This document shows positions 1 through 30,097 of a stretch of 64,000 nt of DNA, piece by piece (the stretch's first letter is position 1; each line of letters opens with the position of its first letter). Location of the stretch: NCBI GenBank assembly GCA_028714235.1, contig JAQTMQ010000003.1, positions 1,306 through 65,305 of the forward strand, written 5' to 3'. The notes under the pieces are model-generated. The model searched no databases. It was not told where the DNA came from and was given only the letters and a program-made list of their open reading frames with translations. The position numbers and the translations under genes are program-made. This stretch comes from Candidatus Iainarchaeum sp. (GTDB lineage: Archaea; Micrarchaeota; Micrarchaeia; Burarchaeales; Fermentimicrarchaeaceae).

Positions 1-1
1 T

Positions 2-4553: not shown

Positions 4554-4619
4554 GTTCTCGTAGGCGTCGGGCGAGCTGTTCAGGTATTGGTAGCCGTAAA
4601 GCGTGTTCCTGTAGCGGGT

Positions 4620-11189: not shown

Positions 11190-11212
11190 GCCACAACCTT
11201 TGCATTCCGCTG

Positions 11213-11223
11213 CTTATTAATTT
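11213..11223 (-). promoter_or_regulatory. TATA-box-like element about 25-30 nt upstream of the giant surface-protein start (leaderless-type spacing)
   Basis: AT-rich AAATTAATAAG (minus strand) in otherwise 65 % GC DNA; position relative to the ATG at 11187-11189. Confidence 0.35.
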
Positions 11224-11329
11224 GCCGTGGGAAATCCGGGGTTTCCGCGGCCCGGGAAGCCCGCGCCATTGAGCGCTGTTGCCGCTGCCGTGCTGCTCTT
11301 AGTAATAATATAGTGCGGCGCGGCCCGCC

Positions 11330-13707: not shown

Positions 13708-13965
13708 TCATTGCCCTCTTTTGCCGGTGAGGCGGGAGATGAGCGGCGAAAGGATTTTGAGGACCGGGTTCGGGACGGGCTCTGCGACGCGCTTTTTTAT
13801 CGCGTACTGCCGCGTGTGCTCGAACCGTTTCTTCACGCGTAGCAGGAGCACGTTTTTCTCGGCCGTGTACTTGAGCGCGGCTGCCCCGATTTTGGCTATT
13901 TCCCGCTGCACGTCGGCCGCGCCGCTTCCCCCCTTCCCGGATTCCGCCCCGCTTTCGCCCATCAT
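13708..13965 (-). CDS. small hypothetical protein (85 aa), Lys-rich
   Basis: ORF track. Overlaps the upstream 260-aa gene by 4 nt (13962-13965), suggesting translational coupling. Confidence 0.3.
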   Translation of the reverse strand: MMGESGAESGKGGSGAADVQREIAKIGAAALKYTAEKNVLLLRVKKRFEHTRQYAIKKRVAEPVPNPVLKILSPLISRLTGKRGQ

Positions 13966-14744
13966 CTCAACTCGAGGTAGCCGCCCAAAACCATTTTGTT
14001 GAGTATGGCTTCCACGCGCGACTCAACCACGTTGTACTGCTTCGAGAACTCGGGGATGCTTATCTCGTTCCTGTGCACGTCAAGCCAGTCCTGCAGCTTC
14101 ACCATCAGGGTTTCGTCGCTGTAGGCCTCGAGCTCCTTCACGCGCAGGGTTAGCTCGTCGTTCTCGGAGCGCGCCTCGATGAGGTCCTTGCTCATCTTCG
14201 AGTGCTGGGCCTCGAGGAGCTCCGTCTTCTTCTTGAGCTCCGAGAACCCGCGGAGCGCTTCGTCGTATTTCGCGAAGATGGTGTTGTAGTCCGAGGAAGC
14301 GAACTCTGCTATGTCCTTGAGCACGGACTGGAGGAGCTGGTACAGCTGCTTCTGGTCGGCCTCGCATGCGCCGTCGAGCTGCGTGAGGAGGTTGAGGAGG
14401 TGGCGGCACACCTCGATTTTCCGCTTCCTCGCGCTCGCGCCCGGGATGACCGAGTAGGCGACCTCAATCGAGGAGGGCCGCAGGTAGGTGATTGAGAAAA
14501 GGTATGGGCTCCGCTTTATGTCCCTGCTTTCGACGTTGAGCACCGCTACGGTGTCGCCGTCGACCGAAACCTTCAGGAACGAGCTTGCCGAAAGGATGCG
14601 CGAGATTTCGGCCGGCTCCTTCGACCGCGTTGCCGAAAGCGCGAAGCCGTCAACTGCCGGCTCCGCTTTCGCTTCCTCCTGCGGCTTCTGCTGCGCGGCC
14701 TCCTGCCCGGAGGGCTGTGCTGGCGTGGCGGGTATCTGCATCAC
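13962..14744 (-). CDS. coiled-coil protein with C-terminal helix-turn-helix-like segment (ISIPEFSKQYNVVESRVEAILNKMVLGGYLE); candidate regulator or accessory protein of the island
   Basis: ORF track. Heptad-like Glu/Lys/Leu-rich central region. C-terminal wHTH-like pattern. TATA-like TATTTAATTT at 14775-14784 upstream. Confidence 0.5.
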   Translation of the reverse strand: MMQIPATPAQPSGQEAAQQKPQEEAKAEPAVDGFALSATRSKEPAEISRILSASSFLKVSVDGDTVAVLNVESRDIKRSPYLFSITYLRPSSIEVAYSVIPGASARKRKIEVCRHLLNLLTQLDGACEADQKQLYQLLQSVLKDIAEFASSDYNTIFAKYDEALRGFSELKKKTELLEAQHSKMSKDLIEARSENDELTLRVKELEAYSDETLMVKLQDWLDVHRNEISIPEFSKQYNVVESRVEAILNKMVLGGYLELR

Positions 14745-14795
14745 CTCAAACGTTTCCGGTCCCTGCTGCGGTAGTATTTAATTTCCCGCCGCTTT

Positions 14796-15179
14796 TTATG
14801 CCTTCGTTCCGGCGGCCTTCCCGCTCTCTTCCCCCCTCTTCTCCGGCAGCTCCGCCTTCGGGTAGTAGTTGACGAGGGACAGCGCGAGGAGGAACGCTGC
14901 CGCGAGCGCCCCCGCGAGGATTGACGCCAGCGAACGCGACGAGTAGAGCACGAGGAAGAACATTGCGGCGGCGAGAAGCCCGTACCACATCAGGTATTTC
15001 TCGAACCGCGCGCGCTTCCCGCGCGCCGCCTCGACGTCGTCCTCGCAGACGACGAGCGAGTTTCCCGTGGCCCTGCCGAGGCGCTCCTTTGCCGCGCGAA
15101 TCGTGGAAAGCACGGGGTCCTCCTGGACTGGGTGGCCCGCCTTTTCCTTCCCGCACACGATGCAAACCGTTTTCGGCAT
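14796..15179 (-). CDS. small membrane protein with N-terminal CxxC zinc-ribbon-like motif (CIVCGK) and two C-terminal TM helices
   Basis: ORF track; hydrophobic segments LLAAAMFFLVLY and ILAGALAAAFLLALSLV. Confidence 0.4.
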   Translation of the reverse strand: MPKTVCIVCGKEKAGHPVQEDPVLSTIRAAKERLGRATGNSLVVCEDDVEAARGKRARFEKYLMWYGLLAAAMFFLVLYSSRSLASILAGALAAAFLLALSLVNYYPKAELPEKRGEESGKAAGTKA

Positions 15180-15188
15180 TGTAACAAC

Positions 15189-15488
15189 TCAATCGTAAAA
15201 CGCTATGTCCTGAACCCTTTCCTCGTCCATGCCCGCCTTCTTGAGGTCGGCGCGCGAGAAGACGGTGATGAGGACGGAGTCGTCGACGCCGCCCTCGCGG
15301 AGCATGGCGTAAACCCTGCCGCGCGGGACTCCGAGCCGCTCGACCGCCGCGACGAAGCTCACGATGTCCATGTGCCTGCTCCGCTTGTCGAACGCCGAGC
15401 AGACCTCCTCCGTCTGGTTGTCGGTGAGGCCGATGTCCCTCAGGCGCGACCGCAGCCCCACCTTCTCCATCGAAATCGCGTAGACCAC
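15189..15488 (-). CDS. hypothetical protein (99 aa)
   Basis: ORF track. Non-Arg-biased composition. Sits between the ATPase and the Zn-ribbon gene in the same orientation. Confidence 0.35.
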   Translation of the reverse strand: MVYAISMEKVGLRSRLRDIGLTDNQTEEVCSAFDKRSRHMDIVSFVAAVERLGVPRGRVYAMLREGGVDDSVLITVFSRADLKKAGMDEERVQDIAFYD

Positions 15489-15501: not shown

Positions 15502-17046
15502 TTAGGCGGTTCCCCCGCCCCTCATGAAGTCTATGCGCGAGAACAGGTCGATTATTATCGCGTCCTCTATGCCGATGCTCTTCAGGAACGACGTCGTGCT
15601 CGGCCGCGGCACGTTGTTTTCCTCGAGGTGGTTCACGAACGTGATGACGTCCATCGCCTTCTCGCCTTTCTCGAACTCGTTGAGCATCATGGTGACGGAC
15701 GTGTCCTCCACGCCGAATTCCACGAGCCGGTTCCGGAGCTCGCCGCGCTCGAAGGCGTACGACTTCGGGATGTCCGGGTTCTCGCGCGCCTCTGCGGACA
15801 GCACGGACTCTATCGACATGCGGTATTCCTGGAGCGGCTCCTCGCCGTGGACGCGCTCGAGCAGGAACGTTTCCGGGAACTCGGTCGTGGTCTGGAACGC
15901 CATGTTGACCGCGCACTGGCCCACCCCGAACTTGCCTATCTCGCCGCGCATGAACGGGCTGAAGTTGAGCGAGCCCTGGATGTAGTCGAGGAACTTCTCG
16001 AACTTCACGCGCAGGATGAAGGTCGTCCCGACGTTGGAGAAGATGGCCTCGTTTATGTCCGTCGGGTTCTGCGACGCGACGATGAGGCCGAACTGGTACT
16101 TCCTCCCTTCCCGCACAATCATGATTGCGTCCGAGCGGTCGTCCGAGGCGATTTTCCACGCCTCGTCGAGGACGACGAACACCTTCACGCCCTTCTGGGC
16201 CGACCAGCCCACCGCGCGCATGCGCTCCTTCAGGAACTGCAGGAAGAAGAGGCCTGCAAGGCCCCTTAGGACCTCGTCCGGCAGGCCGGAGAGGTCTATG
16301 TCCACGAGGCCCGCGGTCGTGAGCTCCCCGAGCTTCACGGTCGAAGGCTGCGCGAAGAAGTCGTTCCCCTTCCGCGTGAACTGCTTGACCCGGTAGATGG
16401 CGTTTTCGAGCTCGGCCGGGAACTCGTACGTGCCGGCCCGGAGGCGCTCCTCGAGGATGTTCACGACGTCCTTGAGCGTCGGGGGCCGGACCGCGTCCGG
16501 GGAGTTCTCGTCCGCCGGAGGCTCGTCGGGCCTGAAGCCGGCGCGCACGTACGCCTCCTCGATTGACTGCTCGGTGAGGCGCCTCTGCTCCGGGTACGAG
16601 CCGATGTCCGTGAGTATCTCGAGGGCGCGGATGATTTGCTTGACGCGGTCAATCGGCCGCATCCCGCCGAGGTCGAGCAGGTTGACGAAGTCGCCCTTGC
16701 CGAGCGAAATGATTCTTCCGCCGGTCTGCTTCACCCACGCCTTATATTCCCCCGCCCAGTCGATGATGATGGCGTTGCTGCCCCAGACGAAGGCGGCGCG
16801 GGAAAGGAACGTCTTCACGAAATACGATTTTCCCGCGCCCGTGATTCCGACGATGCAGATGTGCGGGTTCGTGAGCTGCATGAAGCTCCAGTTGAACGGA
16901 ATCTGGAACATCTTGGTGCGCCCCACGTAAATGGAGTTCGCGGGGTCGAGCATCAGGAATTCGGGCGGGGGCTCGGGCGGCCTCATGAACAGGGGCCTCC
17001 TCGACAGCTCCTTGCTCGTTATGCTCTGCGCTTTTATTCCCCCCAT
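15502..17046 (-). CDS. FtsK/HerA-superfamily ATPase of the VirB4/TraC/CedB/HerA type (DUF87-like), 514 aa
   Basis: Walker A GITGAGKS, Walker B VFVVLDEAW, followed by the IVASQNPTD (SQ) motif typical of VirB4/HerA-clade ATPases. ORF track. Confidence 0.75.
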   Translation of the reverse strand: MGGIKAQSITSKELSRRPLFMRPPEPPPEFLMLDPANSIYVGRTKMFQIPFNWSFMQLTNPHICIVGITGAGKSYFVKTFLSRAAFVWGSNAIIIDWAGEYKAWVKQTGGRIISLGKGDFVNLLDLGGMRPIDRVKQIIRALEILTDIGSYPEQRRLTEQSIEEAYVRAGFRPDEPPADENSPDAVRPPTLKDVVNILEERLRAGTYEFPAELENAIYRVKQFTRKGNDFFAQPSTVKLGELTTAGLVDIDLSGLPDEVLRGLAGLFFLQFLKERMRAVGWSAQKGVKVFVVLDEAWKIASDDRSDAIMIVREGRKYQFGLIVASQNPTDINEAIFSNVGTTFILRVKFEKFLDYIQGSLNFSPFMRGEIGKFGVGQCAVNMAFQTTTEFPETFLLERVHGEEPLQEYRMSIESVLSAEARENPDIPKSYAFERGELRNRLVEFGVEDTSVTMMLNEFEKGEKAMDVITFVNHLEENNVPRPSTTSFLKSIGIEDAIIIDLFSRIDFMRGGGTA

Positions 17047-17061
17047 CGGCTCACCAAAAAC

Positions 17062-17889
17062 TCAAAGGCTTGAGACGAAATCCGCCCGCTCCGGCGGGAT
17101 GTAGTGCTCCCATGTGAAGCAGCGCTTCATGTCCTCGCCGCGAAGCGGCTTGATTTCCACGTTGAGCGCGTTCGCGGCGGTGGAGCGGATTTCGCCGACC
17201 TGCCTGCGCGCGGCGGCGATTGCCGCTCCCTCGTTCGCGCCGATTCCCGTCGTCACCGCGTACTGCACGACGCCCATAGGCTTCTCGCCCTCGGCGAGGC
17301 GCTCGAGCATCGCGTTCGCGCGCTGGATTTCGCGCTCCCACTTGTCGAGCGTGAGCGCGTCCGGCTTCCCGCTTTCCCTTTCCTTGCCCAGCTTGTACGT
17401 GGCGGAATACCGCTTGTCCTCTATGCGCTCCCTGTACTTCGCGATGTCCTCGAGGTAGGCTATCAGGCAGAACTTGAACGGGAACTTTATCTGCGAAAGC
17501 GAGCGCTCCCAGAGGTCGACGTACGTCGAGGTCAGCGGCGCCTCCGCGTCGGCCGTGCTGGACTCGTAGAATTTCACCGCCATGTACATCGTCGCGTGGC
17601 AGGTCCCGCCGACGTCCTTGACGACCGCGTCCTGCGACGGCGGAATCCGGTAGCCGCCCCCTATTTCCTCGCTCACCTTGAGGAAGCCGGTGACGAGCGG
17701 CATCGCCATGTAGCCCATCATGAACGAGACGTAGACCGCGCCCACCCCGAGCGCGCCGAGCACCGAAAGCGCGATTGCCATCACGCCCCCGAAAAGGCTG
17801 AGGTTCAGGTAGACCACGCCGACCCCGAAGACCGTGCACGCTATCGCTGCGTACGCGGCGTTCTTTTCGTTCATCCTCAGGTCAACCAA
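17062..17889 (-). CDS. bitopic membrane protein P1 (two N-terminal TM helices plus about 190-aa soluble domain); paralogue of 17900..18691
   Basis: ORF track. Shared motifs with the neighbour (DAVVKDVGGTCHATMYMAVKFYESS vs DVVVKRVGDGYYATMFAAVRIFKSA; C-terminal ...LRGEDMKRCFTWEHY vs ...LTGDDLRRCVDWSYC). Confidence 0.5.
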   Translation of the reverse strand: MVDLRMNEKNAAYAAIACTVFGVGVVYLNLSLFGGVMAIALSVLGALGVGAVYVSFMMGYMAMPLVTGFLKVSEEIGGGYRIPPSQDAVVKDVGGTCHATMYMAVKFYESSTADAEAPLTSTYVDLWERSLSQIKFPFKFCLIAYLEDIAKYRERIEDKRYSATYKLGKERESGKPDALTLDKWEREIQRANAMLERLAEGEKPMGVVQYAVTTGIGANEGAAIAAARRQVGEIRSTAANALNVEIKPLRGEDMKRCFTWEHYIPPERADFVSSL

Positions 17890-17899
17890 GCGGAGTCAC

Positions 17900-18691
17900 C
17901 TACAATTCCTTCACCGAGGCCGGCACGCAGTAGGACCAGTCGACGCACCGGCGCAGGTCGTCGCCAGTAAGCGCGGCGACTTCCGCGTTGAGCGTGGTCC
18001 CTACGGTGCCCCTTATCTCGTTGACGGTCTGCCTCACCGCGGCGATTGCCGTGTCCTTGGTGGCGCCTTTCGCGCTCACCTGGACGTAGGTCAGCATGGC
18101 GCGCGGCCTGTCGCCTGAGGACACCTTGGATATGACGTTGTCCCACATGGATATCTCGCGCTCGAGCGTCAGGATTCTTGCCGGGTCCACCTTCTCCTTC
18201 TCGTTTTCCTTCGCGATTTCCATCTGCGTCCTCGCCTTCCTCTCCTCGATGCTGTCCTTGTAGCGCGAGAGGTCCTTGATGTACACGAGCACGCTGTATT
18301 TCGTCACCGTCTTGAGGCTGGAAACCGCGCGCTCCCAGAGCTCCATGAACGAGAACTTCTCCTTCTCGCTCATCGTGGTCGCGGACTTGAAGATGCGCAC
18401 CGCGGCGAACATGGTCGCGTAGTACCCGTCGCCGACGCGCTTCACGACCACGTCGTCTGTGAGCGGTATCTCGTAGTCCGCCTCCTTGCTCTCTATCACG
18501 CGCTTGCGCTGCGTGAAGTAGGGTATCATCCAGTAGCCCCACTTGTAAAGGACGAACGATACGGGCGCCGCGATTATGGAGACCAGCATCAGGAGTATCG
18601 CGAGCGGGCCGAAATAGTAGCCGCCCGCGAAAACGAGCAGCGAGCAGGCTACCGAGATTCCAATAAGCGCGATGGCGAAAGGGTTTTCCAA
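17900..18691 (-). CDS. bitopic membrane protein P2, paralogue of P1. Probable TTG start at 18689-18691; the ORF-track N-terminus out to 18988 overlaps the upstream gene and is Arg-rich, so probably spurious
   Basis: The upstream gene M1 stops at 18718-18720, so translation must start after that. TTG with AGGGA 5 nt upstream gives an N-terminus (ENPFAIALIGISVACSLLVFAGG) matching P1 architecture. An alternative ATG (MLVSII) lies further in. Confidence 0.45.
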   Translation of the reverse strand: MENPFAIALIGISVACSLLVFAGGYYFGPLAILLMLVSIIAAPVSFVLYKWGYWMIPYFTQRKRVIESKEADYEIPLTDDVVVKRVGDGYYATMFAAVRIFKSATTMSEKEKFSFMELWERAVSSLKTVTKYSVLVYIKDLSRYKDSIEERKARTQMEIAKENEKEKVDPARILTLEREISMWDNVISKVSSGDRPRAMLTYVQVSAKGATKDTAIAAVRQTVNEIRGTVGTTLNAEVAALTGDDLRRCVDWSYCVPASVKEL

Positions 18692-18717: not shown

Positions 18718-19806
18718 CTATATCAGGCGGACCAGCCCCCGCCCGATTTCGGTGATGTCGGCGCCTAATAGTGGCGCCAGCACCTTTATAAAGGTGATAG
18801 TGGCCGCCATGACGATAATCGGGTAGAAAAGCACCTTCAAAAGCACGCCCGGAAGGTACGAGTTCGCGCTGTTGATTCCGGCGGTGATGGACGGGTCGGA
18901 CTGGTCTTCCGCGGTGCGCATCGCGTACTCGGCGTCGTTGTTGCAGCAGGTGAGCGCCGAAACGTCGACGAACGTGAGCCCGGAGCACACGTCCTCTATG
19001 ATGCCTACCTGGTTGGCGAGCGCGCTCTCGTCCTGGCTGATGAGGGAGAGGAATGCAATCATGGTCGGGAACACGAGGAACAGCCCTATGGCTATCGCTA
19101 TCAGCAGGCCGCCTGCCCCGCGCGTCGGGGGGAAGATGCGGAGGAAGACGCCGAGCGGAAGGAAGGTTGCGAACGCGGACGTCTTGAAGAACTCAAGCAG
19201 CCCCTTCCATATGGATACCAGCATGAGGGACTGGGTGATGTACGAGCCCGCTATGTGCGCCGGCTCCACGCGCAGGGGCCGGAGGAACGCGGCCACCGGG
19301 ACGTCTATCCCGACCGCGTTTATGTAGATGGAGAAGGTTGAAAGCGCTTCCACCGGGAAGTTGCAGAAGTAGTACGTGCGGTAATAGTATTGCAGCGCGT
19401 TCTGCAGGTCGTTCAGGTACGCGTCGGAAATCGCGAACGGGTTCACGCCGTGGCCGAGGATGGTCCCGAACAGCTGGTCGCTCATCATCAGTTGCGTCAT
19501 GGATATGAGGCCGAGCACGAGTATGAGGCTCGCGAGCGACTGGTAGAACTCGGCCTTCGCCCAGTTCCGGAGGCTGTGCATGTCGAACGCGATTGCAATC
19601 ATGTACGCGAGCGCGACCACGGAGAACGAGATTGTCACCGCGAGGAGCGCCGACGGGCCCCATATCGCCCATGTGGCCGAAATCGCGTCAACCTCCGCCT
19701 GGAACCATTGCGGCCGCGGCGTCGGGCTTTCCTGGGCGAAGGCGGCCGCTGCGAAGAAGGCGAGGACGAGCGCCGAAAATGCAATCCGCTTCAGGCCAGG
19801 CATCAT
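18718..19806 (-). CDS. polytopic membrane protein, paralogue M1 of a six-member family (signal peptide plus at least 6 TM; candidate VirB6/TrbL/CedA-like channel component)
   Basis: ORF track. Signal peptide ...AAAFA/QE. Family motifs WAKAEFYQ and LPLGVFLRIFPPTRGAGGLLIAIAIGLFLVFP. C-terminus GADITEIGRGLVRLI. Confidence 0.6.
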   Translation of the reverse strand: MMPGLKRIAFSALVLAFFAAAAFAQESPTPRPQWFQAEVDAISATWAIWGPSALLAVTISFSVVALAYMIAIAFDMHSLRNWAKAEFYQSLASLILVLGLISMTQLMMSDQLFGTILGHGVNPFAISDAYLNDLQNALQYYYRTYYFCNFPVEALSTFSIYINAVGIDVPVAAFLRPLRVEPAHIAGSYITQSLMLVSIWKGLLEFFKTSAFATFLPLGVFLRIFPPTRGAGGLLIAIAIGLFLVFPTMIAFLSLISQDESALANQVGIIEDVCSGLTFVDVSALTCCNNDAEYAMRTAEDQSDPSITAGINSANSYLPGVLLKVLFYPIIVMAATITFIKVLAPLLGADITEIGRGLVRLI

Positions 19807-20972
19807 ATCAGCCTCGTGATGTTGCTCACGTCCACCTCTTCCCCGAGCATCGCCGAAAGCCCGCGTATGAACGAGACCATGACCAGGAACACCGCGAACG
19901 GCACGAACACCGCGCCGAGAACCAGGAGCGAAAGGAAGCCGCAGACCGGCTGCATCACCGAATCAAAAATGCCTTTCATCCAGTTGGACAGGTCAAACGA
20001 CCCGCCCGGCGTGCCGGTCGGCAGTGCGGACATGGCGTCCTCGTCGTACAGGGCTGCCACGCTCGCGTCGATGTTGTCCTGCAGTATCCCGTAGAACAGT
20101 ACGACCGACATCGGGTAGATGAAGTAGAACCCGAGCGCGAGCGCGATGAGCGCGCCCCCGAAGCCGCGCGTGATGCCGAACGAGCGCAGCAGGACCCCTG
20201 CAACCAGCAGCGGGCCGAAAAGCCGCGAAAACATCTTGAGGAGGATTATTTGCGCGATGATGATTATTTGCGAGCTCGAGATGGTTATCATCGCGATGTT
20301 GAACATCTGCCCGAGGTTCGCGAACCCCTGGCCGAAGCTCACCATGAAGCCGAGCCCGTTCGGGTTGAGCGCGAGCGTGGTCGAGCTTGCGGCCGAGATT
20401 GCCATGTTGATGACTATCACCGCCCAGAAGCCGGCGCTCACGAGGCTGAGGAAGTGCTCGAGGTTGTAGAGCGCGACGCTGTACGGGTTGCAGCTGCCCC
20501 ATTGTATTTCCGAGTCGTAGTACCCCACGCTCAATACCGCGAGGCTCGGCGCGCTTCCGGGCGTGCACGCCGCGCCGATGACGTCCGCCTGGAGGCCGCA
20601 CCCGAAGCCGACAATCCAGACGAGCAGCCCGGCGAGGACGAGCATGGCGATGCTTTCGTAAACCTGGTTTTTCGCCCATATCCTGAGCCCCGCGTGGTTC
20701 ATGAGGCCCGAAAGCGCGTAAACCACCCCGGCGGAAGCGATGACGACGAGCAGGGTGAGCACGAGAACTCCCTGCCACGAGGTCCACATGGACTGGAGGC
20801 CGCCGGACATCGCGTCGCTTTCGCATGCGGGCGGGAACGGGTTTGACCCGCTCACCGCCCTCCCGCCCGAGGTGCAGCCGGCGAGCATCGCCGCCGCTAG
20901 CGCCGCGAGCAGGAAGGGCGCGAACCGCGCCAGCCTCGGCTTTTTGCGTGGAGGGGACGGCATTGCAATCAC
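19803..20972 (-). CDS. polytopic membrane protein, paralogue M2; N-terminus has lipobox-like LAGC
   Basis: ORF track. Motifs WAKNQVYE and LRSFGITRGFGGALIALALGFYFIYPM. C-terminus VDVSNITRLI. 4-nt overlap (ATGA type) with M1 and with M3. Confidence 0.6.
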   Translation of the reverse strand: MIAMPSPPRKKPRLARFAPFLLAALAAAMLAGCTSGGRAVSGSNPFPPACESDAMSGGLQSMWTSWQGVLVLTLLVVIASAGVVYALSGLMNHAGLRIWAKNQVYESIAMLVLAGLLVWIVGFGCGLQADVIGAACTPGSAPSLAVLSVGYYDSEIQWGSCNPYSVALYNLEHFLSLVSAGFWAVIVINMAISAASSTTLALNPNGLGFMVSFGQGFANLGQMFNIAMITISSSQIIIIAQIILLKMFSRLFGPLLVAGVLLRSFGITRGFGGALIALALGFYFIYPMSVVLFYGILQDNIDASVAALYDEDAMSALPTGTPGGSFDLSNWMKGIFDSVMQPVCGFLSLLVLGAVFVPFAVFLVMVSFIRGLSAMLGEEVDVSNITRLI

Positions 20973-21985
20973 AGGAGCTTGGAAAGCGCGCTCACGTCTA
21001 TCTCTCCGCCGAACACGGTGGCCATTTCCTTCATGAACGTGAACGTGAGCGTGAAGTTCAGCACCGGGAGCAGTATGGAAACGATGACTATCAGGTAAAC
21101 CGGCGCCAGCATCCAGCTGATTACGTACGTCATCAAGCTGGACCAGGTCACCGTCAGGTCAAGCGACAGGATTGGCGGCGGCGTGTCGGCAAGGCCCGCC
21201 TGGTCCTGCTGGACGAGCGGTATCTCGAATAGCACGAGCATGGGGTAGACCACGTAAAGCCCGAGCATCAGCGCGAGCATCGCCGCCCCGGCCGCGCGCG
21301 TGAAGGAGAACGCGCGCAGGGCGAGCCCGATGGGAAGCAGGAGTATGAGTTTTGTGCGGATGAACGTGAGGATTATTATCTGCCCCCACAGCGAGCCGAG
21401 CCCCATGCCCGCGAACAGCGTCATCATGTTCGTGAACTCGTTTATCGGGAAGAGCCCGGCGAGCGGGGCGAGCGCGAAGCCGGTCTGGTAGGGCATGAGG
21501 TAGAGCTGGTAGCTCGTCAGCACGCCGGTCGTGAAGTTCAGTATGGTCAGGAACGATTCCCAGAGCCACATGGCGTCCCGCTTTGCGATGAGGAAGCAGG
21601 ACACGTAGTCGAACGCGGTCGAGAAAGGCGGCTTCTCGTCCGTAGAGCAGGCGTAGGAAAGGCCGGTCAGGGACACGTCAACCCAGCCGCCCCCGCCCGA
21701 GCCGATGCAGGAGGTGCATGGCGCGTCCGGCGTCGTGCCCATGGCCCCGACCTGCGCCGCGACCCCGTCGACTATCGCGAGCCCGATGAATATGAGCACT
21801 ATGAGGGCGACGCTTGCGAAGCCCTGGTAATACTCTTCCTTCGCCCAGAGCGTCACGCGGGGAATCCTGAGCCCGGCTCCCACCATGTACGCGAGCCCGG
21901 CTATCGCGAACACCGCGGAAACCGCGGCGAGAGTCACCGAATACCAGTCCGAACCCAACGCCATAATCGCACCGGAACCAATCAT
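20969..21985 (-). CDS. polytopic membrane protein, paralogue M3 (no cleavable signal peptide apparent)
   Basis: ORF track. Motifs WAKEEYYQ and LRAFSFTRAAGAAMLALMLGLYVVYPM. C-terminus IDVSALSKLL. Confidence 0.6.
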   Translation of the reverse strand: MIGSGAIMALGSDWYSVTLAAVSAVFAIAGLAYMVGAGLRIPRVTLWAKEEYYQGFASVALIVLIFIGLAIVDGVAAQVGAMGTTPDAPCTSCIGSGGGGWVDVSLTGLSYACSTDEKPPFSTAFDYVSCFLIAKRDAMWLWESFLTILNFTTGVLTSYQLYLMPYQTGFALAPLAGLFPINEFTNMMTLFAGMGLGSLWGQIIILTFIRTKLILLLPIGLALRAFSFTRAAGAAMLALMLGLYVVYPMLVLFEIPLVQQDQAGLADTPPPILSLDLTVTWSSLMTYVISWMLAPVYLIVIVSILLPVLNFTLTFTFMKEMATVFGGEIDVSALSKLL

Positions 21986-23457
21986 AACAGATGCGTCAGC
22001 CCGGCTATTTCAATGTCGCCTCCGAGCAGCGGCGAAAGCGTCTTGATGAACGAAACCGTCACCAGTCCTATTATTATCGGAATCATGAAGCCGGGCACGA
22101 TGAGCTGCCCGACGACCGAGATGACCTTGTAGAGCCACGCGAACTCGAGCTCGATGTTCAGCGGGTCCCGGTCGAAAATCCCCATCAGCTCGGGCCCGAC
22201 GCCAATCGTGAGTATCGTGGCCACCTGGGGCGTGCAGAAACGGACCGGGCAAACCTCCTTCCTGTACTGCTCGGCCGCCTCCGGGGTTTTCAGCCAGTCC
22301 GAAGCCGACGCCCACCACGGCCGCGTCGTGTCGCAGGTGCAGCTTTGGACGTCCCACTTGTCAAGCCAGAGCTGCGACTCGTCGAACATGTAGTTGTCCA
22401 TGAGGAGGATGTACATGAGCGGGTAAACCGTGTACAGCCCTATCGCTACCGCCATCAGGAGCCCGCCGAGCCGCCTCGTGAAGAAAAGCGTGCGCAGGAT
22501 TATGCCGAGGGCGAGCAGCACCGGGAAAACGGATTCCTGGATCATGCGGAGCATGAATTCCTGCGCGATGAAGCTCGCAATCCACGAGAAAAGGAACGGC
22601 ATTATGCCCGCAACCGCCTCGGAAAGCATCGTGACCCCGGCGTAAGGGCTGACGCTGAAGCCGAAGGCGAGGTGGCACGGAATCGGGCACGGGAACACCG
22701 GCATCTGCCCTGTTTCCTGGTTCGGGGAGATGTCAATGAACTTGCTGAACCCGGAAAGCGCCCTCATGCGGATGTTCAGGTTGAGCAGGTTGTCCGCCTG
22801 GATGACCATCGCGCCCTGCGAGAAGTTGAGGATTTTCCTCGCGCACGTTATGTGGTAATTCGGGTCGGACGGGGCGGTCGGCATCGCGCCGAAAGGCGAG
22901 ATGCCTCCGGCCTGCATGCTCGCGGGAAGCTCGCCGATGAGGTTCGCGCAGCTGAGCGTGCACCGGTTGTTGACGCACGTGAAGCCGTTGCTGCACGCCG
23001 CCGCGCCCCCGCCGGACGGAGTGATGCACAGCTGGCCGAGCGGGCAGTCCAGGTCCTGCGCGCATCTCGCGGGCTCTCCGGGCGGGCGGCAGTCCGCGTC
23101 GCCGCCGCAGGCTTCCGGGAACGGCGAAACCGCGGTTTTTGACGCGGCAAGCTGGCCGGAGAGGTTGCCGAGGCCGTACACGAAACCGATTACGAGCGTG
23201 AGTATGAGCAGGCTCGCGATTCCCTGGTAAAGCTCGTCCTTCGCCCACACGGTCAGCCTGCGCAGCCCGAAGCCCATCCCTATCATGTACGGGATTGCGG
23301 GAAAGAAGAGCGCTATCACCGCGGCGGTGAGCGCGACCGCGCCCCAGTTCTCCCCGTTTGCGCCCCAGATGTCGGAAAAGGTCGTGGGCGACGCTGCGCA
23401 AGCGGCGCATGCGAACAATGAGAGCGCGAGCAACGCGGTTCGCGGCGAAATCCCCAT
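21982..23457 (-). CDS. polytopic membrane protein, paralogue M4, with Cys-rich extracytoplasmic insertion (CGGDADCRPPGEPARCAQDLDCPLGQLCITPSGGGAAACSNGFTCVNNRCTLSC). Start trimmed to ATG at 23455-23457
   Basis: The ORF-track N-terminal 239 residues are Arg-rich and overlap M5 in another frame. The internal Met gives a signal peptide MGISPRTALLALSLFACAACAAS. Motifs WAKDELYQ and LRTLFFTRRLGGLLMAVAIGLYTVYPL. Confidence 0.55.
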   Translation of the reverse strand: MGISPRTALLALSLFACAACAASPTTFSDIWGANGENWGAVALTAAVIALFFPAIPYMIGMGFGLRRLTVWAKDELYQGIASLLILTLVIGFVYGLGNLSGQLAASKTAVSPFPEACGGDADCRPPGEPARCAQDLDCPLGQLCITPSGGGAAACSNGFTCVNNRCTLSCANLIGELPASMQAGGISPFGAMPTAPSDPNYHITCARKILNFSQGAMVIQADNLLNLNIRMRALSGFSKFIDISPNQETGQMPVFPCPIPCHLAFGFSVSPYAGVTMLSEAVAGIMPFLFSWIASFIAQEFMLRMIQESVFPVLLALGIILRTLFFTRRLGGLLMAVAIGLYTVYPLMYILLMDNYMFDESQLWLDKWDVQSCTCDTTRPWWASASDWLKTPEAAEQYRKEVCPVRFCTPQVATILTIGVGPELMGIFDRDPLNIELEFAWLYKVISVVGQLIVPGFMIPIIIGLVTVSFIKTLSPLLGGDIEIAGLTHLL

Positions 23458-23462
23458 CCAAA

Positions 23463-24473
23463 TCAACCGAACGGCGACGGAAAGTTTTGCGAGAAGACTT
23501 TCGTCATGCTCTTGATGAACGCGTAAAGTATGGCGAGGTCGAGCAGGGGCAGGAACACCGCCTGCGGCACGAGGATGGCGACTTTCTGCACCTGCTCCAT
23601 GGGCGCGAACATCTGGATGACCGAGCGCAAGGCGTTGAATGCTGCGAACGGGCCGACGAACACCGATGCCGAGCCGCCCGCCTGCCCCCAGTCGCTCGCG
23701 CTCTCGTACGCGAAGCCGACGTCCCCGATGCTTGCGACCACGGCGCCGTTGAACACGTAGAGCATGGGCCACACGATGTACGCGCCGAGCCCTATCGCGA
23801 TGAACGCCGCCCCCGCCGTCCTGAGGAACGGGAACACGCGGAAGAACACGCCCATCGGGAGCACTATCTTGAACGCCACCGCCTGCGCAAGGTTGAGGAG
23901 AATCTCCTGCAGGAGGAGCGACGAGAAAAGGGTCGAGGCCAGCAGGAAAAGGAAGTTCAGGAGCGCGTTTATCGCGCTCAGCCCCGCAAGCGGCTGGAAG
24001 CCGCTGGGCGGCGCGCCGACCGGGACGAAGAACGCGCCTGCGACGGAAGCGTAGATGGCGAGCAGGAAAAGCTCCATTGCCACGTTCAGGGTTTTCTGCC
24101 ATATCAGGTCGTTCAGGTAGCTCCTCGCCGCGGAGAACGGGTCGCCGCCCGCAAGCGAGAACGTGGCCGTGCACGCGATTACCCCGAGCGAGGACACGAG
24201 GTAGATTATGAAGAAGGATATGAGCGCCTGGTAGAATTCGTCCTTGACCCAGAGAATCCAGTCAAGCCTCGAGAGGAGCACCGCGGACATGTAGACGATG
24301 GAAAGGAAGAGCATTATCGCCATGATGCCGGACAGCGCGAGCGAAATCCACGTGCCCCCGCCCTGCGTCCACTCCGAATCAAGCGTGCAGAGCTCCGCCG
24401 CATGGCACGTGCCGCACAGCGCAAGCAGTAGGAAAACCGCGGCTGCAAACGTTTTCATGCGGCGCGGATTCAT
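23463..24473 (-). CDS. polytopic membrane protein, paralogue M5 (start at MNPRRMKTF...; ORF-track start at 24536 would overlap M6)
   Basis: Signal peptide MNPRRMKTFAAAVFLLLALCGTCHA. Motifs WVKDEFYQ and FRVFPFLRTAGAAFIAIGLGAYIVWPM. M6 stop at 24478-24480. Confidence 0.55.
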   Translation of the reverse strand: MNPRRMKTFAAAVFLLLALCGTCHAAELCTLDSEWTQGGGTWISLALSGIMAIMLFLSIVYMSAVLLSRLDWILWVKDEFYQALISFFIIYLVSSLGVIACTATFSLAGGDPFSAARSYLNDLIWQKTLNVAMELFLLAIYASVAGAFFVPVGAPPSGFQPLAGLSAINALLNFLFLLASTLFSSLLLQEILLNLAQAVAFKIVLPMGVFFRVFPFLRTAGAAFIAIGLGAYIVWPMLYVFNGAVVASIGDVGFAYESASDWGQAGGSASVFVGPFAAFNALRSVIQMFAPMEQVQKVAILVPQAVFLPLLDLAILYAFIKSMTKVFSQNFPSPFG

Positions 24474-24477
24474 CCAA

Positions 24478-25566
24478 TCACAGCCCGAGCTTTGACATGC
24501 CGAACACCTGCGGGTCCCCGCCGAGCGCAACCGCAAGCGACCTGAACGCGGTCACGGTGATTATGAAGTCCAGGATGAAGAGCAGCATTATGGAAACGAA
24601 CAGCTGCACCGCCGGGCGGAGGACGTTGACCACCGCGTGCACGTTCTGGCCGCTGAGTATCGCGAACGGCGTGAGGATGCTGCCCAGCAGGAATCCCGTG
24701 ATGCCGCCGAGGAGCGACCCCGGGCTGACGACCTGGAGGAGCACGGGGTCGAACGCGTAAAGCATGAATATCTCGTTTGAAAGCGCGAGGGCCAGCGGGT
24801 AGACGAAATACAGGGTGAGCGCCATCGCGATTACGGTGCTCCCGAGCCTCCTCGTGAAGGTGAAGGAGCGCATCACGAGCCCAAGGGGAAGGAAGAACGA
24901 GAGCATGTGGTTTTCCGCAAACGTCAGCAGGATGAACTGCGCGGCCACCGCGAAATACGCGCTGAAAAGCACGGAAAAGAAGGGCCGGAGCCCTGAAAGT
25001 ATGTCGCTGAGTCCCGAAAGCAGTGCGACGCGCGTGCCGTCGCGAACGTAAACGACGACCGCTCCGGGGGCGAGCAACGGAAGCGGGATGGGGATGAACA
25101 TGCTCACCGAAAACGAGCTCAGCATCGCGTACTCCTGTATCGTGCCGACAGAGTTCGTGAGCACCGTCGCGACGCTGCCTTGCGCGCGGTCAAGGTACGC
25201 CCTCCCGGCCTGGATGTGGTCGCCGCCCGTCAGCGCAATCGAGATGTCGCCGACGGCAATGACGAGCGTGAAGACCACCGCGAGAAGGAACAGGTTGAGC
25301 ACGGCCTCGAAGAACTCGTTTTTCGCCCATTCCGTAATCTTGCCGAGCCCGAACGCCGCGCCCATCATGTAGGCGAGCCCTGCGAACATGAAGCCGAGCG
25401 ACGCGGCGAGAAGCGCGGTCGGCACCCAGTCGCCGAAAATTGCGGCGCTCGGGGGCAGCGCCTGCGGGGTCGCGGACGCCTGGGGCGTCGCCGGGCACGC
25501 GGCCGGGGGGAGGATGGCGAGCAACGCTAGCAAGGCGGCTAACGCGCGAAAACGTGCTGGCGGCAT
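24478..25566 (-). CDS. polytopic membrane protein, paralogue M6 (first gene of the six-gene block)
   Basis: ORF track. Motifs WAKNEFFE and MRSFTFTRRLGSTVIAMALTLYFVYPL. TATA-like element 25589-25600 upstream. Confidence 0.6.
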   Translation of the reverse strand: MPPARFRALAALLALLAILPPAACPATPQASATPQALPPSAAIFGDWVPTALLAASLGFMFAGLAYMMGAAFGLGKITEWAKNEFFEAVLNLFLLAVVFTLVIAVGDISIALTGGDHIQAGRAYLDRAQGSVATVLTNSVGTIQEYAMLSSFSVSMFIPIPLPLLAPGAVVVYVRDGTRVALLSGLSDILSGLRPFFSVLFSAYFAVAAQFILLTFAENHMLSFFLPLGLVMRSFTFTRRLGSTVIAMALTLYFVYPLALALSNEIFMLYAFDPVLLQVVSPGSLLGGITGFLLGSILTPFAILSGQNVHAVVNVLRPAVQLFVSIMLLFILDFIITVTAFRSLAVALGGDPQVFGMSKLGL

Positions 25567-25588
25567 CGGTGGGAATTAGGCGCGCATC

Positions 25589-25600
25589 TTTTATTATAAT
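25589..25600 (-). promoter_or_regulatory. TATA-box-like element (ATTATAATAAAA on minus strand) about 25-30 nt upstream of the M6 start codon; candidate promoter of the six-gene membrane-protein operon
   Basis: Isolated AT-rich dodecamer in a GC-rich 161-bp intergenic spacer; spacing to the ATG at 25564-25566. Confidence 0.4.
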
Positions 25601-25727: not shown

Positions 25728-26042
25728 TCAGGAACCGCTCATTCCCACGAGGAAGTCAACAAGGAACGGGGCTATGATGACTATCAGGATTCCGACTACC
25801 CCCCCGACAATCATCGCCATCGCCCAGTTCTGTGCCTTCTGCCTAGTCGCCGCGTCGAATACCTGCCCTACCGCGTACACGAGCCCCGCGAGGATGAAGA
25901 GTGCGAGCACGACTATGGGAACGATGTCCTTAATCAGCTGCACCAAATCCAGGAGCGACGTGTTGATGTTGCTCGCCAGACGCGAAGTGGCAAAAACTGC
26001 GCCGCTTGCAAGAAGCGGCGCCAGTGCGCGAAACGACCTCAT
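25728..26042 (-). CDS. pilin-like small membrane protein, copy C (about 105 aa): signal peptide plus two hydrophobic helices separated by a basic loop (VirB2/TrbC/CedA1-like layout)
   Basis: Internal Met (MRSFRALAPLLASGAVFATS...) of ORF 25728..26309. The longer N-terminus overlaps copy B out of frame. Conserved core LAGLVYAVGQVFDAATRQKAQNWAMAMIVGGVVGI. Confidence 0.5.
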   Translation of the reverse strand: MRSFRALAPLLASGAVFATSRLASNINTSLLDLVQLIKDIVPIVVLALFILAGLVYAVGQVFDAATRQKAQNWAMAMIVGGVVGILIVIIAPFLVDFLVGMSGS

Positions 26043-26065
26043 ACCAGTCACCGGTACCTGCCCGC

Positions 26066-26413
26066 TTAGCAGATTGGAACCGAGGCTCCCGAAAGCGCGG
26101 GCACGAACGCACCGATTATGATTGGCGCGATCACCGCGAGTATGATGCCGATTATGCCGCCGAGTATGAGCGACATCGCCCAGCCCTGTGCCTTCGCCTT
26201 CGTCTCGGCGCCGAACGCCTGGCCTGCGGCGTACGCGAGCCCAGCAAGGAAGAAGAGCACGAGCGCCAGCGTCGGAAGCACGGCAACCACGATCTGCTTG
26301 ACAGAGCACAGCGCCGAGTTGATTGGGCCGACGCTGATGGTGCTCGTCGCGAACGCGAGTCCGCTGAACGCAGCCAACACTAATGCCAACATTGCATATC
26401 TTTGCAGTTTCAT
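26066..26413 (-). CDS. pilin-like small membrane protein, copy B (115 aa)
   Basis: ORF track. Sec-type signal peptide ...GLAFA/TSTISV, then two hydrophobic helices with loop QAFGAETKAKAQGW. Perfect TTTAAATA about 80 nt upstream. Confidence 0.65.
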   Translation of the reverse strand: MKLQRYAMLALVLAAFSGLAFATSTISVGPINSALCSVKQIVVAVLPTLALVLFFLAGLAYAAGQAFGAETKAKAQGWAMSLILGGIIGIILAVIAPIIIGAFVPALSGASVPIC

Positions 26414-26493
26414 CCCTTACCCCCCCATAGCGGCCAACCGCGGCTTCCGTGCCGCGACGGCGCTAATCCTGAACCAGAATTGTGCATTCCGTA

Positions 26494-26501
26494 CTATTTA
26501 A
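26494..26501 (-). promoter_or_regulatory. consensus archaeal TATA box TTTAAATA (minus strand) between pilin copies A and B, upstream of copy B
   Basis: Exact TTTAWATA match on the minus strand in the 117-bp intergenic region. Confidence 0.4.
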
Positions 26502-26530
26502 ACCTTTCCATGAGTGTATTAATGTACGCC

Positions 26531-26881
26531 TCATGCGCAGGTTGGAACCGAGGCTCCCGAGAGCGCGGGCACGAACGCACCGACCATTATCGGCGCCATC
26601 ACGGCAAGCATTATGCCGACTATCCCGCCCACGATGAGGGACATCGCCCAGTTTTGCGCGCGCGCCTTTGTCTCGGCGCCGAAGACCTGCCCGGCGGCGT
26701 ACGCGAGCCCGGCAAGGAAGAAGAGCACGAGCGCGAGCGTCGGCAGGACCTGCACCACGATCATCCGGACGGAGCATAGGGCCGCCGTTATCGGGCCCGT
26801 GCTGATTGAGCTGGACGCAAAGGCAACTGCGCTGAATGAAACCAGCATTGACAGCAGCAGAACGGACCTTTTTGGTTTCAT
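26531..26881 (-). CDS. pilin-like small membrane protein, copy A (about 116 aa from MKPKR...; the ORF-track start at 26911 is also possible)
   Basis: ORF track. Signal peptide ...AVAFA/SSSIST. Core about 85 % identical to copy B at the nucleotide level. Confidence 0.65.
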   Translation of the reverse strand: MKPKRSVLLLSMLVSFSAVAFASSSISTGPITAALCSVRMIVVQVLPTLALVLFFLAGLAYAAGQVFGAETKARAQNWAMSLIVGGIVGIMLAVMAPIMVGAFVPALSGASVPTCA

Positions 26882-26942
26882 GAACATCCCCTTTCGCGGC
26901 GGAGCATTCACTTTCCCGCCGCTGCCTGCTTATGGGTAAAGG

Positions 26943-28446: not shown

Positions 28447-28572
28447 TTTATATAGCTTTTCAGCGCGTGCCGCTGAAGCGCGCGTTTCAGGCGGGCGCGG
28501 GAGCGCGCGGCCGATTCCGGTTTGGCGCGCGATTTATTAAACTTGGAACCGGCTTAACTGTCCGGGTTTTCC

Positions 28573-30081: not shown

Positions 30082-30097
30082 CGGGGCGTGGTGCGCG

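What the first reader, a model, noticed from the sequence alone, without database searches (positions are those of the whole stretch)
18718..25566. Six translationally coupled paralogues of one polytopic membrane-protein family with conserved WAK-x-E-[FY]-[YF]-[QE] and LR-x-F-x-[FP]-TR-x-x-G motifs
M6-M5-M4-M3-M2-M1 are arranged head to tail. Junctions M4/M3, M3/M2 and M2/M1 overlap by 4 nt (ATGA-type), M6/M5 is separated by 4 nt, and M5/M4 has a 5-nt gap (23458-23462). A single TATA-like element lies upstream of M6. All six share the same topology and two strongly conserved motifs (for example LRNWAKAEFYQ, LRIWAKNQVYE, LTVWAKDELYQ; FLRIFPPTRGAGG, LLRSFGITRGFGG, ILRTLFFTRRLGG) and a C-terminal [DE]-[IV]-x-[VI]-[SA]-x-[LI]-[ST]-[KR]-L-[IL] tail in five of six. 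M4 carries an extra Cys-rich extracytoplasmic module and M2 a lipobox-like LAGC. Six-fold amplification of one membrane component inside a pilus or secretion locus is unusual. It might form a hetero-oligomeric channel or provide variable surface-exposed loops.
Basis: seen in the sequence. Interest (0 to 1): 0.7.

Follow-up and report, generated by a model that had tools for sequence, protein, structure and literature searches.

The report
Six fixed paralogues in archaeal pilus machine
Six neighbouring genes in a tiny symbiotic archaeon (Micrarchaeota) encode six ancient, non-interchangeable versions of one unnamed membrane protein. They sit at the centre of a conjugation-like pilus machine and probably form its membrane platform, a layout not found described for archaea in the literature searched.

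Summary
Six minus-strand genes (18718-25566) encode paralogous polytopic membrane proteins (22-32% identity) with the reported motifs and tight coupling.

They are not a recent amplification. In every complete related Micrarchaeota locus fetched there are exactly six copies, in the same order. Each position forms its own clade across 10 genomes.

The family has about 3,100 cluster representatives. It matches no Pfam or NCBIfam model and no PDB sequence, and its named members are all "hypothetical protein".

The conserved operon is: 2-3 VirB2-type pilins, the six M genes, two bitopic proteins, a VirB4/CedB/HerA-class ATPase, accessory genes and giant surface proteins. It is chromosomal, with no relaxase or coupling protein detected.

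The N-terminal transmembrane hairpin of the M family is significantly similar to the locus's own pilins. The same relation is published for VirB6/VirB2 and CedA/CedA1.

A confident AlphaFold model matches solved VirB6 (TrwI) only weakly. A VirB6 sequence profile gives no match.

Best reading: the six are the VirB6/CedA-equivalent platform of a domesticated type-IV-secretion-like machine, probably a hetero-oligomer. Membership in VirB6/TrbL is not established.

It is a new variant of a known kind, and of high interest for DPANN-host biology.

The parts
26531..26911 (-). pil3, VirB2-type pilin paralogue (signal peptide plus two hydrophobic helices). The true start is probably an internal ATG.
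   Evidence: Pfam T4SS_pilin PF18895 weak hit. It aligns with the pilins of L001 and L002 and scores 8e-51 against the pilin HMM. A TATA-like TTAAATAA lies upstream.
26066..26413 (-). pil2, VirB2-type pilin paralogue
   Evidence: A TATA-like TTTAAATA lies upstream.
25728..26042 (-). pil1, VirB2-type pilin paralogue. It is the only one lacking both conserved Cys, and it is followed by T-runs resembling an archaeal terminator.
   Evidence: PF18895 at 26.0 bits, against a cutoff of 26.6. TIGR03745 ICE membrane protein at E 0.009. Sequence read.
25588..25600 (-). TATA-like promoter element about 29 nt upstream of the M6 start codon. A leaderless or short-leader operon start is inferred.
   Evidence: Read directly.
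24478..25566 (-). M6 (362 aa), position 1 of the six-gene array
   Evidence: Orthologous to position 1 in all related loci.
23463..24473 (-). M5 (336 aa; NCBI aa, PHF51_01065), position 2. It lacks the C-terminal tail motif.
   Evidence: (P0002).
21982..23457 (-). M4 (491 aa), position 3, with a Cys-rich extracellular insert (18 Cys)
20969..21985 (-). M3 (338 aa), position 4, the minimal core without a signal peptide. This is the protein that was modelled.
   Evidence: AF2 pLDDT 87.9, pTM 0.83. Also.
19803..20972 (-). M2 (389 aa from GTG 20972, or 386 aa from ATG 20963), position 5, with a lipobox-like LAGC
18718..19806 (-). M1 (362 aa), position 6, the best conserved of the six (40-60% identity to orthologues)
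17900..18691 (-). B1 (263 aa, TTG start; identical to NCBI PHF51_01040). Two N-terminal TM helices plus an alpha/beta cytoplasmic domain. Identity unknown.
   Evidence: (P0307, 100% identity).
17062..17889 (-). B2 (275 aa), paralogue of B1
15502..17046 (-). VirB4/CedB/HerA-class P-loop ATPase (514 aa)
   Evidence: Pfam DUF87 5e-13, AAA_10 6e-12, TraG P-loop 2e-6. NCBIfam CedD 1e-18, CedB 3e-17 and VirB4-like models, all far below their cutoffs. PDB HerA chains and VirB4 4ag5.
13962..15488 (-). Three conserved accessory genes: s99 (15189-15488, similar to the ATPase C-terminus), s127 (14796-15179, CxxC plus 2 TM) and p260 (13962-14744, coiled-coil)
   Evidence: Present in the same order in 9 related loci. 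Sequences.
1893..13702 (-). Downstream surface proteins: p790 (11330-13702, membrane-anchored), a giant 2189-aa Cys-rich beta-helix protein (4620-11189) and p886 (1893-4553, C-terminal TM anchor)
   Evidence: p790 is conserved in related loci. A giant ORF follows it in the one complete locus whose downstream gene list was read, L002, and giant ORFs also follow the M array in the divergent loci L004 and L015.

Best explanation
M6-M1 are six ancient, non-redundant paralogues of an uncharacterised membrane-protein family, found so far only in Micrarchaeota (DPANN archaea).

They are the membrane-platform component, the functional counterpart of VirB6/CedA/TedA, of a chromosomal type-IV-secretion-like pilus machine. 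That machine also comprises 2-3 VirB2-type pilins, two bitopic B proteins, one VirB4/CedB/HerA-class ATPase, small accessory proteins and giant surface proteins.

Each M protein is a pilin-like N-terminal transmembrane hairpin followed by four further long helices. The conserved WAK.E.YQ and LR.F..TR..GG motifs lie in Arg/Lys-rich loops. By the positive-inside rule these loops face the cytoplasm.

The six genes are transcribed from one promoter and are translationally coupled, which should give fixed stoichiometry. They most likely assemble into one hetero-oligomeric platform or ring. There, pilins would be extracted from the membrane and polymerised, and the substrate would pass through. Lineage-variable Cys-rich or Ig-like ectodomains inserted in the outside loops would provide surface or host contacts.

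Shown: paralogy; six positional orthologous groups; conserved operon; absence from curated families; pilin-like N-terminus; a confident helical-bundle fold.

Inferred: equivalence to VirB6; hetero-oligomer formation; motif orientation; direction and nature of the cargo; a role in host interaction.
For: (1) Context. Three pilin genes with PF18895 T4SS_pilin hits (one at 26.0 bits against a 26.6 cutoff) and a DUF87/AAA_10/TraG-P-loop ATPase flank the array. The ATPase's best NCBIfam hits are CedD, CedB and VirB4-like models. Its PDB matches are HerA chains and VirB4 4ag5.

(2) Conservation of the operon. The order pilins, M6..M1, B1, B2, ATPase, s99, s127, p260, p790 recurs across the related Micrarchaeota loci. 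In 9 of them the post-M genes B1-p790 were checked and found in order.

(3) Copy number. Every complete locus has exactly six M genes. Best hits follow the order M6-M5-M4-M3-M2-M1 in 10 of the 11 complete loci; in the divergent L004, positions 4 and 5 are ambiguous. In an NJ tree of 60 proteins, each position is a clean clade with the same internal branching, including the divergent L004 and L015. All five duplications therefore predate the common ancestor of these lineages, and none has been lost.

(4) Coupling. Junctions are overlaps or gaps of 4-5 nt, behind a single TATA-like element.

(5) Pilin similarity. hhalign of the pilin profile against the M profile gives probability 94.2%, E 1e-7 and score 48.9 over 60 columns covering the N-terminal hairpin and the LAYM...WAK region. 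Controls are low: reversed pilins score 12.9; 20 column shuffles score at most 21.5; M hairpins 2 and 3 give probability 0.2%. The same region-to-region relation is published for VirB2 56-119 against VirB6 24-90 and for CedA1 against CedA (PMC9905601).

(7) Not mobile. There is no match in plasmids or viral contigs. The flanks are housekeeping genes.

(8) Precedent. Five conserved VirB6 paralogues occur in the reduced-genome symbiont Rickettsia (PMC2653234).
Against: No sequence-level link to VirB6/TrbL was found. There were 0 of 107 family members with a PF04610 hit. hhalign against an Agrobacterium-type VirB6 profile gave probability 2%. There was no PDB sequence hit.

CedA and TedA were not testable.

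Solved VirB6 is a homo-pentamer, so six distinct subunits would be a different architecture.

The hetero-oligomer claim has no direct evidence, because no multimer prediction was possible. B1 and B2 remain unidentified. The NJ tree has no bootstrap support values.
Confidence: 0.55

Rival explanations
1. The M proteins are not a channel or platform. They are membrane-anchored minor pilins or pilus-base/tip adaptors. The pilin-like N-terminal hairpin would insert each into the first layer (or the tip) of the pilus, and the variable ectodomains would act as adhesins, a role comparable to VirB5 or to the minor pilins of type IV pili.
For: Only the N-terminal hairpin resembles the pilins. Ectodomain inserts are highly variable between paralogues and lineages: Cys-rich in M4; 552- to 1504-aa versions with faint Big_3_3/Big_13 (Ig-like) hits in L004; 902 aa in L008. 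T4SS pili are built in about 5-start layers (established knowledge), so a set of distinct priming subunits is conceivable.
Against: Four further conserved TM helices carry the strongest family-wide motifs, including an invariant Arg and Pro in the LR.F..TR..GG/VYP region. These would be unnecessary for a minor pilin. Such large polytopic proteins could not leave the membrane with the pilus. This rival overlaps the best explanation, because VirB6 itself is thought to seat the pilus base.
Confidence: 0.2
2. The six are functionally interchangeable specificity variants, for example one per host or substrate, with only one or a few used at a time.
For: The extracellular regions differ strongly between paralogues. 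DPANN symbionts may need host-range flexibility (inference).
Against: Interchangeable cassettes normally show copy-number variation, gene conversion and lineage-specific duplication. Here the copy number is exactly six in every complete locus, each position is a separate deep clade with species-tree-like branching, and the order never changes. The genes are translationally coupled in one operon.
Confidence: 0.1
3. The M family is an unrelated membrane transporter or permease complex that merely sits next to the pilus genes.
For: No family assignment exists at all, so an unrelated function cannot be formally excluded.
Against: The array lies between the pilins and the ATPase in every locus, including the most divergent complete ones, and shares their operon. 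The N-terminus is significantly similar to the pilins of the same locus. No transporter profile or fold scores above noise.
Confidence: 0.05

Closest known systems
VirB6/TrbL (PF04610), the polytopic inner-membrane platform of bacterial type IV secretion systems (e.g. TrwI of R388, PDB 7o3v/8rt9)
   Same: Polytopic helical membrane protein encoded between VirB2-type pilin and VirB4-type ATPase genes. The N-terminal hairpin resembles the cognate pilin, as published for VirB2/VirB6. It is the best-ranked biologically sensible fold match.
   Different: There is no detectable sequence-profile similarity, and the fold match is not significant. Here there are six distinct paralogues rather than one protein forming a homo-pentamer. 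No VirB5, B7, B8, B9, B10 or B11, coupling protein or relaxase was detected nearby.
CedA/TedA of the archaeal Ced and Ted DNA-import systems (PMC9905601)
   Same: Both belong to archaeal, chromosomal, relaxase-less, minimal T4SS derivatives: a VirB2-like pilin, a 6-7-TM membrane protein whose N-terminus resembles the pilin, and a VirB4/HerA-like ATPase. The ATPase here hits the CedD and CedB models best.
   Different: Ced and Ted have a single CedA/TedA, whereas this locus has six fixed paralogues plus two B proteins. The host lineage is DPANN Micrarchaeota, not Thermoproteota. Homology to CedA/TedA could not be tested. The ATPase scores (62-67 bits) are far below the CedB/CedD cutoffs (600-700 bits).
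Rickettsiales Rvh T4SS with five tandem VirB6 paralogues RvhB6a-e (PMC2653234; Anaplasma VirB6-1..4, PMC7648143)
   Same: Several divergent paralogues of the polytopic platform protein are conserved as separate orthologues across a clade of obligate, genome-reduced symbionts. Some carry very large extra domains. Large insertions likewise occur here in L004, L008 and L016.
   Different: The Rickettsial proteins are bona fide PF04610 members in a diderm T4SS with VirB8-B11 and VirD4. Here the family is unassigned, the organism is an archaeon with a single membrane, and there are six copies.
Patescibacteria (CPR) T4SS related to the monoderm MPF-FATA class (PMC12102498)
   Same: A relaxase-less T4SS-like system with PF18895-type pilins and VirB4 in ultrasmall episymbionts. 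It is thought to serve host interaction rather than plasmid conjugation.
   Different: It is bacterial, with a single VirB6/PrgH-like protein where one is detectable. A multi-paralogue platform is not mentioned in the passages of that paper that were read.

Membership tests
VirB6/TrbL (PF04610) | Sequence or profile match to the TrbL/VirB6 domain | tested here: not met
   There is no PF04610 hit for the six proteins at E<=10, nor for any of 107 family members at E<=1. hhalign of the 150-sequence M profile against a profile of Agrobacterium-type VirB6 (~100 sequences) gave probability 2%. The VirB6 profile was narrow (>=40% identity), so sensitivity was limited.
VirB6/TrbL (PF04610) | Polytopic cytoplasmic-membrane protein with at least 5 transmembrane helices | tested here: met
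   The AF2 model of M3 has six long helices (35-44 residues) plus short ones, at pLDDT 87.9. Hydropathy segments were found in all six proteins.
VirB6/TrbL (PF04610) | Encoded together with a VirB4-class ATPase and a VirB2-class pilin | tested here: met
   The arrangement is conserved in the related loci.
VirB6/TrbL (PF04610) | Three-dimensional similarity to solved VirB6 (TrwI) | tested here: inconclusive
VirB6/TrbL (PF04610) | N-terminal segment related to the cognate pilin (reported for VirB2/VirB6 and CedA1/CedA) | tested here: met
   hhalign probability 94.2%, E 1e-7, 60 columns. Reversed, shuffled and internal-hairpin controls were negative.
VirB6/TrbL (PF04610) | Homo-pentamer at the base of the stalk, carrying VirB5 | not testable with these tools
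   No multimer prediction was available. No VirB5-like gene was recognised.
CedA/TedA (archaeal Ced/Ted systems) | Profile-profile similarity to CedA or TedA | not tested
   No CedA or TedA sequences could be obtained, because the supplement text was garbled by machine reading. NCBIfam gave no hit for any M protein at E<=10.
CedA/TedA (archaeal Ced/Ted systems) | One membrane-pore gene per system | tested here: not met
   There are six paralogues in every complete locus.
CedA/TedA (archaeal Ced/Ted systems) | Partner ATPase is CedB/TedB-like | tested here: inconclusive
   The best NCBIfam hits are CedD (67 bits) and CedB (62 bits), but the curated cutoffs are 600 and 700 bits. HerA and VirB4-like models score similarly.
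T4SS pilin (PF18895), tested for the three upstream small genes | Score at or above the Pfam gathering threshold; signal peptide plus two hydrophobic helices | tested here: inconclusive
   pil1 scores 26.0 bits against a cutoff of 26.6, and pil3 scores 14.3 bits. An orthologue in L002 is listed as a weak PF18895 hit. The architecture fits. hhalign against a single A. tumefaciens VirB2 was negative.

The most novel reading that the evidence does not exclude
The six M proteins form an obligate hetero-hexameric (pseudo-six-fold) membrane ring matched to the hexameric ATPase. This would be the first T4SS-type platform built from six dedicated paralogues. This machine would be the so far unidentified envelope structure through which Micrarchaeota connect to their hosts. 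It may be related to the 21-nm docking barrel and intercellular tubes seen by cryo-tomography in the Micrarchaeon ARM-1 (PMC11329633), and it would move host macromolecules or metabolites rather than conjugative DNA.
Probability: 0.2. Interest if true: 0.88.

Novelty: new variant of a known kind. Interest (0 to 1): 0.72.

Why it matters
DPANN archaea make up a large share of archaeal diversity and live attached to hosts. The proteins that build their cell-cell connections are unknown; two cryo-tomography studies say so explicitly (PMC11329633, PMC11420986).

This locus is a concrete candidate. It is chromosomal and conserved in order across all 12 distinct related Micrarchaeota loci fetched, wherever the contig covers it. 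It encodes pilins, an ATPase and giant surface proteins.

Its centre is a protein family absent from all curated libraries, fixed at six copies. A six-paralogue platform would be a new architectural solution within the type IV secretion superfamily. It would also give a natural system for asking how symmetry and subunit specialisation evolve in secretion machines, as the paralogous MCM2-7 or proteasome rings do for their own complexes.

The significant pilin/platform similarity also adds independent support for the proposal that VirB2-type pilins and VirB6-type platforms share an origin.

Tried and rejected
- Pfam on the six proteins and on 107 family members: only noise.
- NCBIfam on the six proteins: nothing.
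- PDB sequence-profile search at E<=10: zero hits.
- AlphaFold-database fold search: library unavailable.
- hhalign of the M, B and pilin profiles against single A. tumefaciens VirB1-11 sequences: all negative. This includes pilins against VirB2, so the test is insensitive.
- hhalign of the M profile against a VirB6 family profile: negative.
- Test for internal repeats, asking whether M is three pilin-like hairpins: rejected, since only hairpin 1 resembles the pilin.
- The search for related loci with the broad alignment failed because it had no conserved stretch. The M1-orthologue alignment worked.
- Recovering CedA/TedA sequences from the Beltran supplement failed because the text was garbled by machine reading.
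- Mobile-element origin: no match in plasmids or viral contigs.
- Seven literature searches: no description of this array found.
- tRNA and Rfam scans of the window: empty.


Full report
THE OBSERVATION

The minus strand of 18718-25566 carries six consecutive ORFs:
- M6: 24478-25566
- M5: 23463-24473
- M4: 21982-23457
- M3: 20969-21985
- M2: 19803-20972 (GTG start) or 19803-20963 (ATG start)
- M1: 18718-19806

The junctions were read directly. M6/M5 has a 4-nt gap and M5/M4 a 5-nt gap. M4/M3 and M2/M1 are ATGA overlaps. M3/M2 is either a GTGA overlap or a 5-nt gap before an ATG. Orthologous loci overlap by 4 nt at this junction, which favours the GTG start.

A TATA-like ATTATAATAAAAG lies at 25588-25600, about 29 nt before the M6 ATG. 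T-runs follow the last pilin gene.

The six proteins are 22-32% identical. Pairwise BLASTP E-values run from 1e-5 to 1e-15. Across 150 family members, one Arg and one Pro in the LR.F..TR..GG/VYP region are invariant. The Trp of the WAK.E.YQ motif and the Glu four residues after it are present in at least 90% of members.

WHAT SURROUNDS THE SIX GENES

Upstream are three small paralogous genes. Each encodes a signal peptide and two hydrophobic helices. They hit Pfam T4SS_pilin (PF18895): pil1 at 26.0 bits against a 26.6 cutoff.

Downstream are, in order:
- two paralogous bitopic proteins, B1 and B2;
- a 514-aa P-loop ATPase;
- three small conserved genes;
- a membrane-anchored 790-aa protein;
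- a 2189-aa Cys-rich beta-helix surface protein;
- an 886-aa protein with a C-terminal anchor.

The ATPase hits DUF87 (the HerA central domain), AAA_10 and TraG P-loop. Its best NCBIfam hits are CedD, CedB and VirB4-like models, all far below their cutoffs. Its PDB relatives are HerA chains and VirB4 4ag5.

No relaxase, coupling protein or integrase was recognised. The flanks are housekeeping genes: IleRS, a MiaB-like radical-SAM enzyme and PMT-family glycosyltransferases.

The window is identical to a GenBank MAG labelled Candidatus ainarchaeum sp., locus tags PHF51_01040 to PHF51_01065. All relatives that carry names are Micrarchaeota.

THE KEY RESULT: SIX COPIES, FIXED IN ORDER AND ANCIENT

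The related loci came from twelve further contigs. One is the complete genome of Ca. Fermentimicrarchaeum limneticum.

- An HMM of the family finds exactly six tandem M genes in every complete locus. Two MAGs have one copy split.
- The best BLAST hit of each gene follows the order M6-M5-M4-M3-M2-M1 in all complete loci except L004. There, positions 4 and 5 best-hit M2 and M1 by narrow margins.
- I built a neighbour-joining tree of 60 proteins (10 loci by 6 positions, 289 profile columns). Each position is a clean clade of ten with the same internal branching. This includes the very divergent L004 and L015. The tree has no bootstrap support.

All five duplications therefore predate the common ancestor of the sampled Micrarchaeota. 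No copy has been lost or reordered since.

The rest of the operon is also collinear: pilins, B1, B2, ATPase, s99, s127, p260, p790.

The family is large, with 3,104 representatives of 50%-identity clusters at E<=1e-3. It is entirely unannotated:
- no Pfam hit for 107 members;
- no NCBIfam hit;
- no PDB sequence relative;
- source names are only 'hypothetical protein'.

It is absent from the plasmid and viral collections.

WHAT THE PROTEINS ARE

AlphaFold2 on M3, with a 150-sequence alignment, gives a confident model (pLDDT 87.9, pTM 0.83). The model has:
- an N-terminal hairpin of two very long helices (residues 4-39 and 42-83);
- a small beta-containing insert, on the outer face by the inferred topology, which is where M2, M3 and M4 carry Cys-rich inserts;
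- four further helices of 35-44 residues.

The two conserved motifs lie in Arg/Lys-rich loops. By the positive-inside rule these loops face the cytoplasm; this is an inference.

Profile-profile comparison shows that the N-terminal hairpin is significantly similar to the locus's own pilins: probability 94.2%, E 1e-7, score 48.9 over 60 columns. Controls were negative:
- reversed pilins score 12.9, and 20 column shuffles score at most 21.5;
- the second and third hairpins of M give probability 0.2%;
- M against the polytopic A. tumefaciens VirB6 also gives 0.2%.

The HMMs also cross-hit weakly. The M HMM hits pilin ORFs at about 1e-5 to 1e-6, and the pilin HMM hits an M protein at 3e-4.

Beltran et al. 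reported the same relation, over about the same length. CedA1 matches the N-terminus of CedA, and VirB2 56-119 matches VirB6 24-90 at 66.6% probability over 63 columns (PMC9905601).

Fold searches give no significant match:
- Foldseek: TrwI chains rank 3, 5, 10 and 26 of 350,542 chains, at E 0.6-2.2.

A direct profile comparison with an Agrobacterium-type VirB6 family was negative.

INTERPRETATION

The locus is a chromosomal, relaxase-less, minimal relative of type IV secretion systems. It is of the same general kind as the archaeal Ced and Ted DNA-import systems and the Patescibacteria T4SS (PMC9905601, PMC12102498).

Within it, the M proteins occupy the genomic and architectural place of VirB6/CedA/TedA. 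They are polytopic proteins with a pilin-like N-terminus, encoded between pilin and ATPase genes.

I therefore think they form the membrane platform on which pilins are assembled and through which cargo passes (confidence about 0.55). Membership in the VirB6/TrbL family is not established, because one defining test (the profile match) failed.

Three things point to a hetero-oligomer in which each paralogue has its own place. The count is fixed at six, the orthology is one-to-one, and the genes are translationally coupled. This is the pattern seen in other complexes built from paralogues, but it was not tested directly.

The closest precedent for several conserved platform paralogues is the Rickettsiales Rvh system. 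It has five VirB6 copies, again in genome-reduced obligate symbionts (PMC2653234).

Cargo and direction are unknown.

Micrarchaeota depend on hosts. The proteins of their intercellular tubes and of the 21-nm docking barrel are unidentified (PMC11329633). Giant surface proteins are encoded in the same locus. A role in host contact or exchange is therefore plausible but speculative.

WHAT REMAINS OPEN

- CedA and TedA could not be compared.
- No multimer modelling was possible.
- Seven literature searches found no description of this array. That is not proof that none exists.

Noticed in passing
window 25728-26911 (pil1-pil3); L001 3712-4470; L002 3879-4732: The pilins carry two Cys that occur together or not at all. 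One lies near the mature N-terminus (..SLC..) and one is at or next to the C-terminus (..PIC, ..PTCA, ..AAC). Six of seven pilins have both, and pil1 has neither. Both ends of a VirB2-type pilin lie outside the cell, so a disulfide joining the termini could mimic the head-to-tail cyclisation of VirB2/TrbC/TrhA pilins.
   Followed up: partly
window 15189-15488 and the C-terminus of 15502-17046: The 99-aa gene just downstream of the ATPase is homologous to the last ~86 residues of the ATPase itself. The ATPase matches L002 14202-14501 at 37% identity, E 2e-18. s99 matches the L002 ATPase at E 7e-12. This looks like a duplicated small domain, with a weak AbiEi/wHTH-like Pfam hit.
   Followed up: no
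L016 12621-15764: In this Micrarchaeia MAG the ATPase orthologue is a 1047-aa ORF, against about 510 aa elsewhere, and is still 72% identical over the matched part. An intein or another large insertion is likely.
   Followed up: no
L004 2804-9970; L008 4077-6785; L016 4908-6803; L015 3746-5518: Individual positions of the six-gene array carry very large insertions in some lineages: 552 and 1504 aa in L004 (the 1504-aa ORF, called as a 1494-aa gene, has faint Big_3_3/Big_13 hits), 902 aa in L008, 631 aa in L016 and 590 aa in L015. This recalls the giant extensions of Rickettsiales VirB6 paralogues. In L004 and L015 no B, ATPase or pilin genes were found next to the array by my HMMs. A protein of about 220 aa and a giant ORF of more than 2300 aa follow it instead.
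   Followed up: partly
window 19803-25566, N-termini of M2, M4, M5 and M6: Four of the six proteins, not only M2, have a Cys at the end of the signal-peptide hydrophobic region (LAGC, FACAAC, ALCGTC, PAAC). Archaeal lipoprotein-type processing of polytopic proteins would be unusual.
   Followed up: no
window 27685-31519; L001/L002 871-3339: A 6-TM protein (253 aa) and PMT/PMT_2-family glycosyltransferases lie immediately upstream of the pilins, two of them in the window. A ~240-aa gene and one PMT_2 gene occupy the same place in L001 and L002. They may glycosylate the pilins or surface proteins.
   Followed up: no
window 1-64000: No tRNA gene and no Rfam family at gathering threshold was found in the whole 64 kb. 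G+C is 60-66% throughout.
   Followed up: no
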